A DNA stretch of 64,000 nucleotides from Octopus vulgaris. Taxonomy: Eukaryota. The translations under genes were made by a program, and so were the position numbers. The stretch's first letter is position 1; each line of letters starts with the position of its first letter. Under the pieces are notes generated by a model. The model saw nothing but the letters and a program-made list of their open reading frames with translations. It was not told the DNA's origin and made no database searches. Positions 8,389 to 64,000 of this stretch are shown piece after piece. Location: positions 124,001 to 188,000 of the forward strand of contig OX597815.1 of NCBI GenBank assembly GCA_951406725.2, in the 5' to 3' direction.

Positions 8389-8432
8389 GAATAATAATAA
8401 TAATCATAATCATAATAATAATAATAATAACA
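8389..8432 (+). repeat. (AAT)n microsatellite, Dong target site
   Basis: Direct reading; abuts the LINE 5' end. Confidence 0.95.
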
Positions 8433-8530
8433 ACACCGGGGACGTTAAACAGAGAACACCGGGGACGTTAAACGAGAGAACACTGGGGACGTTAAACGAG
8501 AGCACACTGGGGATGTTAAACATGTGAGAG
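8433..8530 (+). repeat. Four ~24-bp tandem monomers at the LINE 5' end
   Basis: ACACYGGGGACGTTAAACGAGAGA-type units starting 8433, 8456, 8480, 8504. Confidence 0.9.
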
Positions 8531-8727
8531 CGATAAAACAGTGCTCCGAAATCTATCCACAAACATCGAAGACAAAGACATCGTATGGAGCCAAAAATTT
8601 ACTAACAAAGGACTGGACTATATCCAAGTAAGTAATACTCATTGAAATTTATTACTATTTTCGAAACGAAATGATGTATTTTAACTCGATATCATCTCCA
8701 CCTCTAACACAACACATGTAAACATGC

Positions 8728-11700
8728 ATGGAACATTACAATCCATCAACACCAGATCATCCCCGACCCCAAACACCATGTACAAAAAAAACTATGAAGA
8801 AATTAAATAACACTGATATTATTCAACCTAAGAATAACAATCGGGAAGTACGTACTTTAAACTTGTTACGCAAAATGTACGAAAAACTACACGTGCAAAA
8901 CAATGTGACAACAGAAATGAACGGACCGGTACCCTACGAAAATGACGACCGTCAAAATAATGGACCGGACGTTGTTCCTCATGTCCCGCAAATAAAACCC
9001 AAAAGACATAAATGGACACGTGAGGATTACATTTCTATTCTACACGCATAATTCACAGCAGTGCTCTACCCAAAAAATGTAAACACAACACATACATATA
9101 AAATATGGAAGGAAAATAACATAAATATAGACTTGGGTACAGCAATGAATCCTAATAAACTAGCAAACGTACGAAGATACATTCTCAACGCAAAAAAAAT
9201 ATCAGAAATAGAAATAGAACATCTAAAAGAAAAAATACATCAGGAAAATGTAGATAGAAGCCACACAACAATGCCCAATAATATAAACACTGAAACAGTA
9301 AAACACGAAGACAAACATAACATTCCCAACAAACACAATGTAAACAAAAAACAACAAACCCAGACCATAAGGATGCATGATAATACACGACAAACAAACA
9401 TACGAACGTGAAAAAAAGTGACACAAATGTAAAAGCTGGAAACAACGAAGGGGAGCCTAATGATTATGATACTACAAAAAGTAGAATAATCAAAGAACTG
9501 AAAAACACAGATCTCAAGATGGACCACCAACCATACCTCCCAAAAATCAAAATAGACGAAACAACAACATCAATTATAAACAGCATAAACCTAGCCGTCA
9601 CGGAACTAATAGCCACTGAAACAAAAAGCGATATCACTGAGCTAAATGACTTAGTATACGCAGCAGCCACTGCAGCCACAAAAGAAGCTGGATACTCACT
9701 TAAACCCATCCAAACAGGAGTACCACCACCCAAACAAACCCTGTGGATAAATAACATCCCAAATAAAATACAAAAAATGAGAAAAGATCTGTCGATTCTT
9801 AATGAAATCAGTAGACAATCAACGCTACTGAGCAACAAAAAGAAAACAAAAATACTCCGCAAATACAACATCACAGAAAAAGATTTACCTGAGATAAAAG
9901 AAAAACTAAAGCAAGATATCCTTGCCAAAGCACAAAGGATCCGCCGGTTCGAGAATCACCAGAAAGTCCAACTCCAACCCCCAAAAGTTCTACCAAGAAC
10001 TTGGCAAAAATAAAATAGAAATCACTGCAGCACCAACGGCAGAAGAAGTGGAAGAATTCTGGAGAGAAATATGGTCAGCGAACGAACAACCAAAAAAAAA
10101 AGAAGTATTAAAACAACAAACTCAGCATCTGAGCAACATTGGACCCCCATAACAACTGAGGAGGTCACCCAGGCACTGCAAAGACTAAGCAACCAGAAGG
10201 TACCCGGGCATGACAAGATCCCCAACTTCTGGTTGAAATATCTAACAGGAATGCACAAAAAGCTGGCTGAAAACTTTAACAACATACTAGCAGAGCCAGA
10301 GACAATGCCAGATTGGCTCACGAAGGGGAAAACTATCTTAATTCCCAAATCAAATGAGACAGCAAAACCAGAAAACTACAGACCTATAACCTGTCTCCCT
10401 ACAATGTACAAGGCATTTACTGCAGTGATATCGCAAGGGTTGAACAAGCACCTGGACGAAAACAACCTGTTTCCAACAGAGCAGAAAGGATGCCGCAAGG
10501 GCTCATATGGCTGTAAAGATCAACTAATGATTAATAAAGCCATAACTGAAGACAGCCACAGAAAGAAGAAAGGCCTCAGTATGGCCTGGATCGACTAAAA
10601 AAAGGCGTTTGATAGCATCCCCCACACATGGATCCTCGAAACACTAGCCATTAACAAAGTAGTACCAACAATTATAAAATTCATAGGACACTCTATGAAT
10701 AAATGGCAAACAGCGCTACAGCTCCAAACAAAAGAGGGACTCATGAAAACCAAAGACATCCCCATTAGAAGAGGAATATTCCAGGGAAACATGCTCTCTC
10801 CACTCCTTTTCTGCTTGGCACTGTCACCTCTATCTGATATGCTAAATAGAACTGGATGCGGATATAAATGTTACGGCAAAACGATCAGCCACCTTTTATA
10901 TATGGATGACCTAAAACTATACGCTGCAAATGACAAACAGCTGGAAACACTATTAAAGACATTTCATGGATTTAGCAAAGAAATAGATATGAAATTTGGA
11001 TTAGAAAAATGTGCCAAAGTAACCCTGAAAAGAGGAAAACTAGTTAAGAGTAGCAACATCACACTAGATAAAACCAATGAAATAAAAGAATTAGACCAAA
11101 GCCAAACTTACAAATACTTAGGAATCCATGAACTAGATAAGACACAACACACACAAATGAAAGAGAAAATAAAAAAAGGATATTATAGACGAGCTAGATC
11201 AATACTAAAAACAGAGCTCAATGCTAAAAACAAGATAATAGGTATCAACACTTTAGCTGTCCCAGTTATAAGTTACAGCTACAATATCCTTAACTGGACA
11301 CTAAATGAGCTGACCAAAATAGATAGGAAAACAAGAAAAATAATGACAGGATCTAGGATGCATCACCCAAAATCTGACATAGAAAGACTATATATACAAC
11401 GTATAGAAGGTGGTAGAGGCCTTATACAGCTGGAAAACTACTATAAAATAACCACCATAGGACTGCAAAAATATCTACTTCAGAAGTAAGGAAAACTGAT
11501 ACAAATAGCGGCAAAACACAAGCAAAACAAAAACTGTTCTCAGTATTTAAGGAAGCTGACAAATACAAACAAGAAATCATACCACCTAACAAATATGAAG
11601 AAGAAGATGAAGAAACAACAAAAGCTATAAAACAAATGAAATCCAAACTAAAACTAGAACAGCAAAAAACCATGGTAAAGTGATGGCAAGAAAAGCCCCT

Positions 11701-12492
11701 TCATGGTAAATACTGGACTAAACTAAATGCAAAAGAAATAGACAAAGAAAAATCCCAGCAATGGTTGAGAAGCTCAGGACTCAAAGCAGAGACAGAGGGA
11801 TTTTTAATTGCAGTGCAAGACCAAAGCCTCCCCACCAGAAATTACCAAAAACATGTAATGAAAAGAAATATAACAAGTAAGTACAGAATATGTGGAGATG
11901 GACTAGAAACAATAGATCATATTATCTCTGGCTGCCCAGTCCTGGCTAAGAAGGAATATATTCACAGACACGACAGAGTTGGAACCTACATACACTGGAA
12001 GCTATGCCAACATTATGGAATAACAACAGAAAAAAGATGGTATAGGCACACACCAGAAAAGGTCACAGAAAACGAGAAAGCAACCATCCTCGTCGCTATT
12101 TAAAGATTACTATTCCTCCGTGGTGTTTTGCATTCATAATGCCAATACACACAGATAGAGAAATTAAGGCCAACAGACCAGATATAGTTGTTAGAGATCA
12201 TGAAGAAAAATAATGTTTTCTAATTGATGTATCAATACCAGCAGATGACAACGTGTCTCTAAAAGAGATGGAGAAACTTTCAAAATACAAAGACCTGGAA
12301 ATAGAGGTAACCAGAATGTGGAATCTAAAAACAGAAACAATTCCTATCTTAGTAGGTGCATTAGGCATGATAAAAAAATATTCAGACAAATACATAACAA
12401 AAACACCAGGACTTACAAACACATATAACATACAGAAAATTGCACTACTAGGCACTGCACACATCCTACGCAGAACACTTTCCATACAATAA
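8728..12492 (+). pseudogene. Disrupted Dong/R4 polyprotein (Myb-like N-terminus, RT, CCHC, PD-(D/E)xK endonuclease)
   Basis: RHKWTREDY; YRPITCLPTMYK; AWID*KKAFDSIPH; GIFQGNMLSPLLF; YMDDLK; YKYLG; RICGDGLETIDHIISGC; RHD; RPDIV..IDVSIP..KYKDL; several stops and frameshifts. Confidence 0.9.
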
Positions 12493-12653
12493 CCATCAGA
12501 GCATCACAACAAATCACAGCACATACCCAAGGCACACAGAGCTGCGCTCGGTAGTGAAGTGAAAGCACGCTATAAAAATAAAACTACTGAATAATAATAA
12601 TAAGGCTGACGATATGTGCATCTCTGATCACGAGCAGAAGTAGTGGGGGAGCA

Positions 12654-13209
12654 ATGCCCTGATGCAGTACCAGGCAGTGGCTCTCATGGCTTCTGATCTT
12701 AACTGATTGGAAGTGTTATCATGTACATTGTTTTGTCTTGGTATAAAAGATGGGCTACAGCAAATATTCTGCTCAATACCACAGATTTGCTTGTCAGTTG
12801 TTTGACCTTAACCAGTTGAGCATGTCCCTTTGTGGCTGACGATATGTGCATCTCTGATCACGAGCAGAAGTAGTGGGGGAGCATCATAGCCATGTGTTGA
12901 GAGGGATTCTTTGGGGTTTGAATAGTTCACCTCTGGAAACATGGGTGCTTCATTCAACATCCTTAAACAACCCTTATTCAGGGACCGTTTGAGCGGGATG
13001 GGCTACTCAACCTGAAGAAAATTCTAACTGGGCCCCACCTGCAAGGTCATGTGCTGTTTATCTTGATATGAGATCACCATGTCGCGCACATATGGTTGTG
13101 ATGCAGGTGCCTGGTGTACCTTTATCAGACGGGTAGTCATGATGGGTATATTGGGCTTCGTATATTTTACCCCAGTGTCACTTTGATGGCATGAACTGCT
13201 CTCTCACTC
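12654..13209 (+). mobile_element. Family C ~555-nt non-coding element, full length
   Basis: Starts ATGCCCTGATGCAGTACCAGGC, ends CTCTCTCACTC+(AAT)n; 5 copies in window. Confidence 0.85.
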
Positions 13210-13236
13210 AATAATAATAATAATAATAATAATATA

Positions 13237-13491: not shown

Positions 13492-13943
13492 ATGCCCTGA
13501 TGCAGTACCAGGCACTAACTCTCATAGTTTCTAATCTTAACTGATTAGAAGTGTTATTATGTACATGTCTTGTCTTGGTATAAAAGATGGACTACAGCAA
13601 ATATTTTGCTCAATACCACAGATTTGCTTGTCAGCTGTTTAACCTTAATGATTTGAGCTTGTCCTTTGGTGGCTGACAATATGTACATCTCTGATCATGA
13701 GCAGGAGTTGTGGATGAACATCATAGCCATATGTTGAAGAAAATTCTAACTGGGCTCCATCTGCAAGATCATGCACTGTTTATCTTGATATGAGATTACC
13801 ATGTCGTGCACATATGGTTGTGATGCATGTGCCTGGTGTACCCTTATCAAATGGGTAGTCATGTTGGGTATACTGGGCTTTGTATATTTTACCCCAATGT
13901 TATTTTGATGGCATACACTGCTCTCTCACTCAATAATAATAAT
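13492..13943 (+). mobile_element. Family C, diverged, with internal deletion
   Basis: Same 5' end (ATGCCCTGATGCAG) and 3' end (CTCTCACTCAATAAT); about 115 nt missing centrally. Confidence 0.85.
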
Positions 13944-14420: not shown

Positions 14421-14740
14421 CCCTTAAAATTTGAAATGATAAGAATTTGGAGTATGAAAACTGTAAAGGTTGTGCCTGTAATAATTGGTGCTTTGGGAAC
14501 TGTGAGCAAAGATATAGACAAATGGTTGATAGAGATTGGAATAGATGTTCTATAGAGTTTCTACAGAAAGTTTGCCTCTTAGGGACAGGAAAGATTATTA
14601 GGAGGGATTTAAGCACTTGAAAGACAGCTAAAAGCTTGTGGATACCTAAGGTTCCAGGTAGTAACCCACTACCCACATAAATTCTACCAGGAATAAGAAC
14701 AGGCCTGACTCAAATCAATAACAATAATAATAATAATGAT
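14421..14740 (+). mobile_element. Dong-type LINE 3' fragment (different family)
   Basis: LKFEMIRIWSMKTVKVVPVIIGALG..FLQKVCLLGTGKIIRRDLST*; same 3' UTR as 41850-42090. Confidence 0.8.
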
Positions 14741-61087: not shown

Positions 61088-61576
61088 AAGTCCAGTATAC
61101 CCATCTGATAAGGGTACACCAGGCACATGCATCACAACCATATGTATGCAACATGGTGATCTCATCAAGATAAACAACACATGACCTTGCAGGTGGGGCC
61201 CAGTTAGAATTTTCTTTTAGTCGAGTAACCCATCCCGCTCAGAAGGTCCCTGAATAAGGGTTGTTTAAGGATGTTGAACAAAACACCCACGCCTCCAGAG
61301 GTGGATTATTCAAACCCCAAAGAGCTCCTCTCAGCACATGGCTATGATGCTCCCCCACTACTTGTGCTCGTGATCAGTGATGCACATATCGTCAGCCACT
61401 GAGGAACATGGTCAACTGGTTAAGGTCAAACAACTGACAAGCAAATCTGTGGTATTGAGCAGAATATTTGCTGTAGCCCATCTTTTATACGAAGACAAAA
61501 CAATGTACATTTTAACACTTCTAATCAGTTAAGATCAGAAGCCATGGGAGCCACTGCCTGATACTACACAGGGCAT
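61088..61576 (-). mobile_element. Family C element, 3'-clipped
   Basis: Reverse complement of 12654-13160; ends ...CAGGGCAT+(TTA)n. Confidence 0.85.
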
Positions 61577-61605: not shown

Positions 61606-62159
61606 GTGCGAGAGAGCAGTGCATGCCATCAAATTGACACTGGGGTAAAATATACAAAGCCCAATATACCCATCATGACTACCCGTCTGATAAAGGTACA
61701 CCAGGCACCTGCATCACAACCATATGTGCGCGACATGGTGATCTCATATCAAGATAAACAGCACATGACCTTGCAGGTGGGGCCCAGTTAGAATTTTCTT
61801 CAGGTTGAGTAGCCCATCCCGCTCAAACGGTCCCTGAATAAGGGTTGTTTAAGGATGTTGAATGAAGCACCCATGTTTCCAGAGGTGAACTATTCAAACC
61901 CCAAAGAATCCCTCTCAACACATGGCTATGATGCTCCCCCACTACTTCTGCTCGTGATCAGAGATGCACATATCGTCAGCCACTAAGGGACATGCTCAAC
62001 TGGTTATGGACAAACAACTGACAAGCAAATCTGTGGTATTGAGCAGAATATTTGCTGTAGCCCATCTTTTATACCAAGACAAAACAATGTACATGATAAC
62101 ACTTCCAATCAGTTAAGATCAGAAGCCATGAACCACTGTCTGTCACTGCATCAGGGCAT
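61606..62159 (-). mobile_element. Family C element, full length
   Basis: Near-identical reverse complement of 12654-13209; (TTA)n on both sides. Confidence 0.9.
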
Positions 62160-63361: not shown

Positions 63362-63752
63362 TAAACAAACTAAACAAACTATGCTGGATCATAGATATAG
63401 CATGCCCAGCTGACAACAAGGTAAGCGATAAGGAAGAATGAAAAGTCGAGAGATATGACAGGTTAGCTTGGGAAGTTAAGCAGTTGAAGTCAATGAAAAG
63501 GTAGCAGTAGTACCAATAATTGTCAGAGCCCTGGGAACAGTGAGCAAAAATCTCAAGAAGTACGTGGAACAAATAAGGGCTGCAATAAGGGTGGAGCACT
63601 TGCAGAAAACAGCACTACTTGGAACTGTTCGAATACTCTGGAAGGTACTTGAAAAATAAGAGGTGTTACCTTAGTTCACTGGTAGTGAACAGCTGACACT
63701 GTAGTACATCTCCAGTGTTAGAAGCTGTGCAAAGGTAATGACAATAATAATA
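63361..63752 (+). mobile_element. Dong-type 3' fragment (same family as 39496-40925)
   Basis: CWIIDIACPADNKV; EHLQKTALLGTVRIL; shared 3' UTR; (AAT)n flanks. Confidence 0.85.
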
Positions 63753-63754
63753 AT

Positions 63755-64000
63755 GCTCTCATGGCTTTTGAGCTTAACTGATTGGAAGTGTTATCATGTA
63801 CATTGTTTTGTCTTGGTATAAAAGATGGGCTACAGCAAATATTCTGCTCAGTACTACAGATTTGCTTGTCAGCTGTTTGAACTTAACCAGTTGAGCATGT
63901 CCCTGATCATAGATGATATGTGCATCTCTGATCATGAGCAGAAGTAGTGGGGGAGCATCATAGCCATGTGTTGAGAGGGATTCTTTTGGGTTTGAATAAT
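63755..64000 (+). mobile_element. Family C element, runs off window end
   Basis: GCTCTCATGGC..GGGCTACAGCAAATATTCTGCTC..GGGTTTGAATAAT; follows (AAT)n. Confidence 0.85.

What the first reader, a model, noticed from the sequence alone, without database searches (positions are those of the whole stretch)
12654..13209. Family C: ~555-nt structured non-coding element with fixed ends, candidate non-autonomous partner of Dong/R4
Seen: five copies; four begin at the same ATGCCCTG and three end CTCTCTC(A/G)C(T/A)C+(AAT)n. All adjoin AAT tracts on the Dong strand. There is no ORF, no tRNA A/B boxes and no visible similarity to the Dong 3' UTRs here. Stems found by eye: TGCC(C)TG/CAGGCA; GCTTCTGATC/GATTGGAAGT; AGCAAAT/ATTTGCT; GTCAGTTG/TGGCTGAC; ACTGGGC..ACCTGCA/TGCAGGT-GCCTGGT; ATA(T/C)TGGG/CCCAGTGT with a U-G to C-G change between copies; and 5' ATGCC can pair with 3' GGCAT. 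Inference: a SINE/SIDE-like structured RNA of unknown origin using a site-specific RLE retrotransposase. Its defined 5' end implies an unknown promoter or processing step. I cannot tell whether it is already catalogued.
Basis: partly seen in the sequence, partly recalled or inferred. Interest (0 to 1): 0.72.

Follow-up and report, generated by a model that had tools for sequence, protein, structure and literature searches.

The report
Headless SINE-like parasite of Dong retrotransposons
This 556-base non-coding repeat has tens of thousands of copies that sit in one orientation inside AAT microsatellites; it is likely copied by the enzyme of the Dong/R4 jumping genes that use the same sites, although it lacks both the tRNA-type promoter and the borrowed tail that such parasites normally carry.

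Summary
Real and abundant. The window holds five copies plus a 50-nt stub. The genome has 13,330 exact 3'-end and 5,991 exact 5'-end matches; sampling suggests about 60,000 insertions, about 0.8% of bases. The 3' end is fixed and followed by AAT (85 of 94, never ATT). Of 95 copies, 40 reach nt 1-3, the rest are 5'-truncated, and none extends further, so it is not a clipped LINE 3'UTR. It shares target, polarity and a locus-specific tandem 'stutter' of the 5' end with Dong/R4, which points to Dong reverse transcriptase acting in trans (inferred). No tRNA/5S head, Pol III boxes, ribozyme or significant Dong tail homology was found. Closest known: Entamoeba EhSINE1 and R2 SIDEs. The promoter or processing step is unknown; Dfam and Repbase could not be checked. 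The scan's notes showed no earlier report of this sequence.

The parts
12654..13209 (+). Family C copy 1, full length 556 nt, 1.4% from the family majority sequence
12604..12653 (+). 50-nt stub identical to nt 181-230 of copy 1, joined directly to its 5' end; likely a template-jump product of the same insertion
   Evidence: 100% identity; similar extra pieces at 9 of 82 full-length copies
13210..13234 (+). (AAT)8 tract at the 3' end of copy 1 (tail/target)
13109..13156 (+). Best-supported 3' hairpin, element nt 456-503 (13-bp G.U-rich lower stem, pair probability 0.97-0.99)
   Evidence: prediction only
13168..13195 (+). Degenerate look-alike of the Dong 3'UTR hairpin motif (element nt 515-542); candidate recognition signal, not above chance
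   Evidence: 7.2 bits, reached by 62 of 1000 shuffles of the last 70 nt and 117 of 1500 genomic windows
12756..12925 (+). Element nt 103-272, the segment also carried inside an unrelated MITE-like family
   Evidence: 96% identity between majority sequences
13492..13931 (+). Copy 2, both ends intact, nt 248-359 deleted, 88-90% identical, AAT on both sides
61606..62159 (-). Copy 3, full length, 97.8% identical, between AAT tracts on its own strand
61098..61576 (-). Copy 4, 5' end intact, 91% identical, 3' end lost or replaced by an unrelated tail ending in (GAT)n
63755..64000 (+). Copy 5, 5'-truncated at nt 27, follows the AAT tail of a Dong fragment, runs off the window
8432..12590 (+). Full-length but frameshifted Dong/R4 element ('Dong A'): RT domain, CCHC knuckle, restriction-like endonuclease motif, 100-nt 3'UTR, 5' stutter of 3.8 x 24 nt; candidate source family of the enzyme
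   Evidence: Pfam RVT_1 E 5e-18

Best explanation
Family C is a 556-nt non-coding repeat, estimated at about 60,000 insertions, that lies in one orientation in (AAT)n tracts and is likely copied in trans from a discrete RNA by the reverse transcriptase-endonuclease of the Dong/R4 retrotransposons that use the same tracts. Shown: fixed 3' end followed by AAT, graded 5' truncation, a hard 5' limit, target and strand shared with Dong, the same 5' stutter as Dong, no coding capacity, no tRNA/5S head. Inferred steps: (1) a roughly 556-nt RNA is made with its 5' end at nt 1 (plus or minus 1), most likely by Pol II from a compact internal promoter, less likely by self-cleavage; (2) Dong protein binds the structured 3' region without needing sequence identity to its own 3'UTR; (3) it nicks the ATT strand of a tract and reverse-transcribes from the RNA 3' end; (4) about four in ten events reach nt 1, and on reaching it the enzyme sometimes jumps to another fragment of the same RNA, giving stubs and tandem 5' units. 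The youngest abundant family in these tracts ('Dong A') is the most likely donor of the enzyme.
For: Abundance: 13,330 and 5,991 exact end matches, reversed controls 0; 17 profile hits in 600 kb of arbitrary DNA, 13 insertions after removing one MITE hit, one weak hit and merging two split copies; all 13 touch an AAT-type tract although such tracts are 0.9% of that DNA. Polarity: 85 of 94 unselected 3' ends have AAT, 0 of 94 ATT. Truncation: 40 of 95 start at nt 1-3, 50 at nt 20 or less, 45 further in; none continues upstream in shared sequence; one 5' inversion (L042). Stutter: 9 of 82 full-length copies, up to 13 x 68 nt (L200) and at least 16 x 30 nt (L333); Dong A shows the same in 12 of 25 full-length 5' ends by eye, 14 by regular expression. 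Stutter units carry no AAT repeats between them, so the cDNA ends at nt 1 rather than in a target-derived leader. Both C (L073) and Dong (L180, L266, L272) also occur at (GAA)n tracts. Direct C-Dong fusions in both orders: L021, L066, L034. Dong targets TAA microsatellites (PMC3812793, passages); R2 enzymes jump templates in vivo and move SIDEs (PMC3414825, abstract).
Against: No tail homology: none of 46-47 Dong 3'UTRs from about 13 families matches significantly (best single copy z 2.8, its three family mates z 1.1, 1.0, -1.0). The hairpin motif shared by Dong 3'UTRs (leave-one-out 3-25 bits) scores only 3.6-7.2 bits in C's tail, not above chance. The C-Dong fusions could equally be DNA deletions between neighbours in one tract. 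Three T4 runs and no A/B box argue against Pol III, but no Pol II element was identified. No expression or biochemical data. Selection on the fold is not shown: substitution rates at paired and unpaired sites are alike (2.9% v 2.6%) and the excess of pair-keeping shared variants vanishes when only transitions are counted (21:12 against 137:108 opportunities). The 95-copy sample comes from the first 19 Mb of one contig and needs an intact 3' 21-mer.
Confidence: 0.72

Rival explanations
1. Origin rival (compatible with Dong mobilisation): C is a SIDE or bipartite remnant, the 5' end and 3'UTR of a rare or extinct Dong/R4 family not sampled here.
For: Right size and target; R2 SIDEs and RTE/Ingi/Vingi bipartite elements arise this way (PMC3414825 abstract; PMC5786205 section 23). 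A weak Dong-like hairpin lies at nt 515-542. 5' ends of only two of about 13 Dong families were examined.
Against: No match to the 5' regions of Dong A or F7; no Dong ORF end directly before C's tail motif in the whole genome for the one pattern tried (0 hits); the best-supported loose ends of contigs from four runs show no alternative upstream sequence for the tail (480 rows not shown); no coding remnant.
Confidence: 0.25
2. Origin rival: copies are retro-copies of a host non-coding RNA from one or a few master genes with an external promoter, captured by Dong protein.
For: Sharp 5' end without an internal promoter signature; stable sense-strand fold.
Against: No Rfam family; allele spectra differ between organism labels, as expected for evolving subfamilies rather than a conserved gene; all 10 copies with G/C-rich upstream flanks were stutters or stubs of C itself (this pattern would catch only a small share of possible master loci).
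Confidence: 0.15
3. C is moved by another enzyme (an RTE or L2/CR1 LINE with an AAT tail, or the Penelope-like elements found at the same tracts) and reaches AAT tracts by tail annealing.
For: No Dong tail homology; RTE and Penelope elements are abundant in octopus genomes (PMC13282606 Table 1); 5' inversions are known for Penelope and L1 (recalled).
Against: Long tracts on both sides in most copies (75 of 95 5' flanks microsatellite-like or A/T-only) indicate a sequence-specific nuclease; one copy sits in (GAA)n with no AAT tail at all (L073); the 5' stutter matches Dong. RTE and Penelope tails were not compared systematically.
Confidence: 0.12
4. C is just the 3'UTR of an autonomous LINE with random 5' truncation.
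For: Fixed 3' end, graded 5' truncation.
Against: 40 of 95 copies pile up at nt 1-3 and none passes it; 30 of 30 5'-anchored loci have a tract or a C-derived stub upstream; pattern search 0.
Confidence: 0.03
5. C is a DNA-level element (Helentron-like or MITE-like).
For: A 5-nt inverted word at nt 1-5 and 534-538 and a possible 5' hairpin loosely recall Helentron ends (recalled).
Against: No terminal inverted repeats; strict strand polarity with respect to AAT; truncation only from the 5' side; stutter shared with an RT-encoding element.
Confidence: 0.03

Closest known systems
EhSINE1 of Entamoeba histolytica (PMC2996970, passages; its partner EhLINE1 being an R4-clade element is recalled, not from a call)
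   Same: 500-600 nt, non-coding, non-autonomous, no precursor small RNA identified, no clear Pol III boxes, moved by a LINE with a restriction-like endonuclease.
   Different: EhSINE1 shares about 70 nt of 3' end with EhLINE1 and inserts without a specific target; C shows no significant tail identity with any Dong family tested, is microsatellite-targeted, and has tens of thousands of copies in an animal.
R2 SIDEs and R2/R1 hybrid SIDEs of Drosophila (PMC3414825, abstract; PMC3774820, passages)
   Same: Short non-coding parasites of a site-specific retrotransposase, inserted at the partner's target, with partner-like 5' junction variation and template jumps.
   Different: SIDEs are a 5' HDV-like ribozyme plus the partner's 3'UTR; neither part is detectable in C. 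SIDEs are rare and confined to rDNA.
Dong (R4 clade) of Bombyx mori, Anopheles, Biomphalaria; Dong-R4 families of octopus (PMC3812793, PMC3774820, PMC13282606; passages)
   Same: TAA-repeat target, orientation, 5' truncation and 5' stutter as seen for Dong copies here.
   Different: C encodes nothing and lacks a significant match to the hairpin motif shared by the Dong 3'UTRs; B. mori Dong has a 5' HDV-like ribozyme, not found in C (nor in Dong A by my descriptor).
Bipartite non-autonomous LINEs (RIME, NARTc, RTESINE, Vingi derivatives; PMC5786205 section 23)
   Same: ORF-less, about 0.3-0.6 kb, thought to be Pol II transcripts.
   Different: Reported only from RTE, Ingi, Vingi and R2 as of that paper; defined by matching both ends of a parent, which is not shown for C.

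Membership tests
SINE (tRNA, 5S or 7SL head, Pol III) | Head derived from a small RNA | tested here: not met
   No Rfam match at E<=10; no tRNA; alignment to this genome's 5S reached by 83 of 1000 (whole) and 432 of 1000 (head) shuffles
SINE (tRNA, 5S or 7SL head, Pol III) | Internal A and B boxes, no internal T runs | tested here: not met
   No box match with recalled consensus patterns; T4 runs at nt 78, 334, 512
SINE (tRNA, 5S or 7SL head, Pol III) | Short, non-coding, fixed 3' end with simple-repeat tail, 5' truncation | tested here: met
SINE (tRNA, 5S or 7SL head, Pol III) | 3' tail shared with the partner LINE | tested here: not met
   46-47 Dong 3'UTRs, none significant after considering family mates; other LINE clades not compared
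SIDE / bipartite non-autonomous LINE | 5' end identical in origin to a parent LINE's 5' end | tested here: inconclusive
   No match to Dong A or F7 5' regions; about 11 other families not examined
SIDE / bipartite non-autonomous LINE | HDV-like ribozyme at the 5' end | tested here: inconclusive
   No fold starting at the 5' end at strict settings; best relaxed folds no better than 40 shuffles. The descriptor had no positive control, and Rfam also missed the minimal hammerhead seen by eye in L045
SIDE / bipartite non-autonomous LINE | Insertion at the parent's specific target | tested here: met
Dong/R4-dependent element | (TAA)n target, same strand as Dong, same junction signatures | tested here: met
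Dong/R4-dependent element | Dong-type 3' hairpin signal | tested here: inconclusive
   Fixed-loop model: no signal; variable-loop model, refined after seeing the data: 7.2 bits, 62 of 1000 shuffles
Dong/R4-dependent element | Priming of cDNA from the RNA by Dong protein | not testable with these tools
   needs in-vitro TPRT
MITE / DNA transposon | Terminal inverted repeats | tested here: not met
   Ends are not complementary; only a 5-nt word 18 nt inside the 3' end
Catalogued repeat (Dfam, Repbase, de novo octopus libraries) | Sequence match to a library entry | not testable with these tools
   No such library on hand; the library of PMC13282606 is on Zenodo and its one held supplement gave only counts in the passages seen

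The most novel reading that the evidence does not exclude
Family C is a self-sufficient parasitic RNA with no ancestry in tRNA, 5S or any LINE end: it defines its own 5' end with an unrecognised ribozyme or promoter module and is bound by a microsatellite-specific R4 retrotransposase through shape alone, making it the first mass-amplified Dong/R4 parasite in an animal and a natural minimal template for a site-specific gene-insertion enzyme.
Probability: 0.25. Interest if true: 0.72.

Novelty: new variant of a known kind. Interest (0 to 1): 0.47.

Why it matters
Non-autonomous partners of restriction-like-endonuclease retrotransposons are rare in print (R2 SIDEs, Entamoeba SINEs), and in nine paper searches I found none described for Dong in an animal. 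A family that fills about 0.8% of a genome, completes about four in ten insertions and lacks both a Pol III head and a borrowed tail makes two open questions testable: what a Dong/R4 enzyme actually recognises in its template, and how a headless short element gets a defined 5' end. The shared 5' stutter is also a cheap genomic fingerprint for pairing orphan repeats with their enzyme. It is still a transposable-element finding of a known general kind, and it probably already sits as an unnamed consensus in de novo repeat libraries.

Tried and rejected
5S origin: suggested by eye, rejected by shuffles. Locus L045 as autonomous partner: it is a 17-nt 5'-truncated stub. The family sharing nt 103-272 as partner: it is a MITE-like element with long inverted ends. 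C nt 1-290 as the 5'UTR of Dong F7 (suggested by L021): 0 of 29 other F7 copies have C at that junction. Likeness of C's tail to the Dong 3'UTR at window 63651-63750: 0 of 200 shuffles for that copy, but best of 46 and not repeated in three family mates; 16 of 300 in local alignment. One search ran the motif model with two wrong training rows and is superseded. Covariation: an apparent excess of pair-keeping shared variants (21:18 v 47:166, p 1e-4) is explained by transition bias; the only recurrent two-sided change is G252-C318 to A-U in 5 of 106 copies, and in one other organism label the common variants at these sites would give A.A. Hammerhead core, HDV-like fold, Rfam ribozymes: none, with weak controls. 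Circular form: no head-to-tail junction among 192 complete 3' ends. Expression: no RNA holder listed as on record; runs guessed to be RNA hold the sequence only as contigs, so nothing is concluded. In one search the RT query was translated in the wrong frame, so only its N-terminal query and start-clustering results were used. PMC2718515 (passages) describes template jumping and microhomology at R2 junctions but I saw no description of tandem duplication of the element's own 5' end there. Paper searches returned no description of this element; subscription journals and Repbase reports are not covered.

Full report
Observation. The element at 12654-13209 is real. BLAST of it against the window finds five copies and one 50-nt stub: two full-length young copies (12654 +, 62159 -; 97.8% alike), one with an internal deletion (13492), one with its 3' end replaced (61576 -) and one 5'-truncated copy cut by the window end (63755). 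No frame is open for long. The copy lies directly behind a full-length, frameshifted retrotransposon (8432-12590) with an RT domain (Pfam RVT_1, E 5e-18), a CCHC knuckle and a restriction-like endonuclease motif (read from the translation); with its TAA-tract target this makes it a Dong/R4 element (established knowledge; Dong's TAA target in PMC3812793, passages). The genome appears to be an octopus (inference from recalled repeat motifs; the scan's notes say the same); it is cited here as G000.

Abundance. G000 (2.8 Gb) has 13,330 exact matches to the last 15 nt plus AATAAT and 5,991 to the first 22 nt; reversed controls give 0. In 60 arbitrary 10-kb stretches a profile finds 17 hits covering 0.8% of bases (raw extrapolation 79,000, 95% interval 46,000-127,000). 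Dropping one MITE hit and one weak hit and merging two split copies leaves 13 insertions, about 60,000 genome-wide. All 13 touch an AAT-type tract, whereas tracts of five or more AAT units are 0.9% of that DNA. Contigs of public runs under several organism labels carry the family with shifted allele frequencies, so it is not peculiar to one assembly. Median divergence from the majority sequence among 3'-anchored copies is 3.75%, with many at 1-2%, and sampled old copies reach 77-83% identity.

Ends. I took copies anchored on the 3' end (95 rows from the first 100 listed matches; all from the first 19 Mb of one contig; one row is a mis-mapped duplicate). Forty start at nt 1-3, ten at nt 4-20, 45 further in, down to 17-19-nt stubs; none continues upstream in shared sequence; 75 have a microsatellite-like or A/T-only 5' flank. 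Of 192 complete 3' ends, 190 run into a trinucleotide repeat; in loci not chosen by their 3' end 85 of 94 have AAT and 0 of 94 ATT. This is the footprint of target-primed reverse transcription from a template with a hard 5' limit.

Link to Dong. Beyond target and strand, C and Dong share a junction signature. Of 25 full-length Dong A 5' ends, 12 by eye (14 by regular expression) carry locus-specific tandem copies of their own first 20-25 nt. Of 82 distinct full-length C copies, 9 carry extra C pieces at the 5' junction, from single stubs such as 12604-12653 to 13 x 68 nt (L200) and at least 16 x 30 nt (L333); all 10 hits of a search for G/C-rich upstream flanks were of this kind. Some stubs start inside the element (nt 181, 28, 18), which fits first-strand jumps to RNA fragments better than re-priming of the second strand (inference; template jumping by R2 in PMC3414825, abstract, and PMC2718515, passages). 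The units have no AAT repeats between them, usually just one extra A, so the cDNA ends at nt 1 and not in a target-derived leader; this argues for a discrete RNA 5' end. Both elements also occur at (GAA)n tracts. Three direct C-Dong fusions were seen (L021, L066, L034); they fit template switching but also deletion between neighbours.

What is missing. About 13 Dong families were recovered from the same tracts. Their 3'UTRs share a motif, CC-NN-AG, a 5-bp stem, a short loop and the stem's other strand (leave-one-out scores 3-25 bits), in agreement with an earlier unreviewed note of this scan (e1-9809270). C's tail does not match any of 46-47 UTRs significantly and holds only a degenerate form of the motif at nt 515-542 (7.2 bits without loop letters, 62 of 1000 shuffles; 3.6 bits with them, 252 of 1000; the variable loop was added after seeing the data). 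C's 5' part does not match the 5' regions of the two Dong families examined. There is no Rfam family, tRNA, 5S likeness, A/B box, hammerhead core or HDV-like fold at the 5' end; the ribozyme negatives are weak because the descriptor had no positive control and Rfam missed a minimal hammerhead in L045. Three T4 runs speak against Pol III.

Structure. The sense strand folds better than shuffles (z -3.29, 0 of 100; majority sequence z -4.0, 40 shuffles), the antisense strand does not. The strongest 120-nt windows are nt 401-520 (z -2.8), 321-440 (-2.2) and 1-120 (-1.7). In 106 copies, paired and unpaired sites mutate alike, the apparent preference for pair-keeping variants disappears among transitions, and only one pair changes on both sides repeatedly (5 copies). 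Decayed genomic copies are a poor test bed, so this is inconclusive rather than negative.

Mechanism. Most likely a ~556-nt RNA is transcribed from nt 1 (probably Pol II, internal promoter; inferred by exclusion), bound at its structured 3' region by Dong protein in trans, and reverse-transcribed at a nick in an AAT tract. Confidence 0.72 for Dong-dependence; the origin of the sequence is open (remnant of an unsampled Dong family 0.25, host RNA master gene 0.15, otherwise unknown).

Comparison. It works like a SINE or SIDE but fails the defining head test for SINEs and, so far, the two-ends test for SIDEs. The closest analogue is EhSINE1 (500-600 nt, no precursor RNA, about 70 nt shared with EhLINE1; PMC2996970, passages). 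PMC5786205 (section 23) lists only RTE, Ingi, Vingi and R2 as sources of bipartite elements. PMC3774820 (passages) shows a 5' ribozyme in silkmoth Dong. Octopus repeat papers (PMC13282606, parts 1-2 of 3 and supplement passages; PMC8967140 and PMC9115989, passages) report abundant Dong-R4 and many unclassified SINE and unknown families but, in what I read, do not describe this one; their libraries could not be inspected. PMC8501958 (abstract) shows other ribozyme classes can define LINE 5' ends.

Verdict. A genuine, very abundant, headless non-autonomous retroelement, likely a parasite of Dong/R4; a new variant of a known kind; interest 0.47.

Noticed in passing
L115-L174 (G000); shares window 12756-12925: A ~500-bp MITE-like family with long inverted ends and TA-like flanks carries nt 103-272 of family C internally (96% between majority sequences); 402 and 211 exact hits of its two junction motifs genome-wide. 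Looks like a DNA transposon derivative that captured a piece of C.
   Followed up: partly
window 8432-8521; L175-L199: Full-length Dong A copies carry 0 to about 5 extra tandem copies of their own 5' terminus with locus-specific unit length; I did not find this described in the papers read.
   Followed up: yes
window 12491-12590, 63651-63750, 14615-14720; L010, L020, L028, L067, L101 and others: About 13 Dong/R4 families pile up in the same AAT tracts; their unalignable 3'UTRs share a short CC-NN-AG plus 5-bp hairpin motif.
   Followed up: yes
L260-L288, 5' end of Dong family F7: The first ~55 nt of F7 can be drawn by eye as two crossing stems (a compact pseudoknot, not a canonical HDV fold), and F7 and Dong A share a short ACACCGGG word near their 5' ends. 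No Rfam match.
   Followed up: no
L045 1557-1680; L009, L029, L055, L139: A Penelope-like end with a minimal hammerhead-type core starts at a fixed point behind AAT tracts, often in inverted pairs.
   Followed up: no
L042 790-1515: A family C copy with an inverted 5' part (nt 86-352 reversed, then 97-556), like twin priming, unusual for a restriction-like-endonuclease system.
   Followed up: no
G000:C4:35.20-35.34 Mb (L111, L112, L114): A cluster of 5S rRNA genes on both strands.
   Followed up: no
element nt 76-122 (window 12729-12775): 5' truncation points appear to cluster here (15 of 95 at nt 71-135), just 3' of the first predicted domain and around an A/T-rich TATA-like word; may reflect microhomology with the target or an RT pause.
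   Followed up: partly
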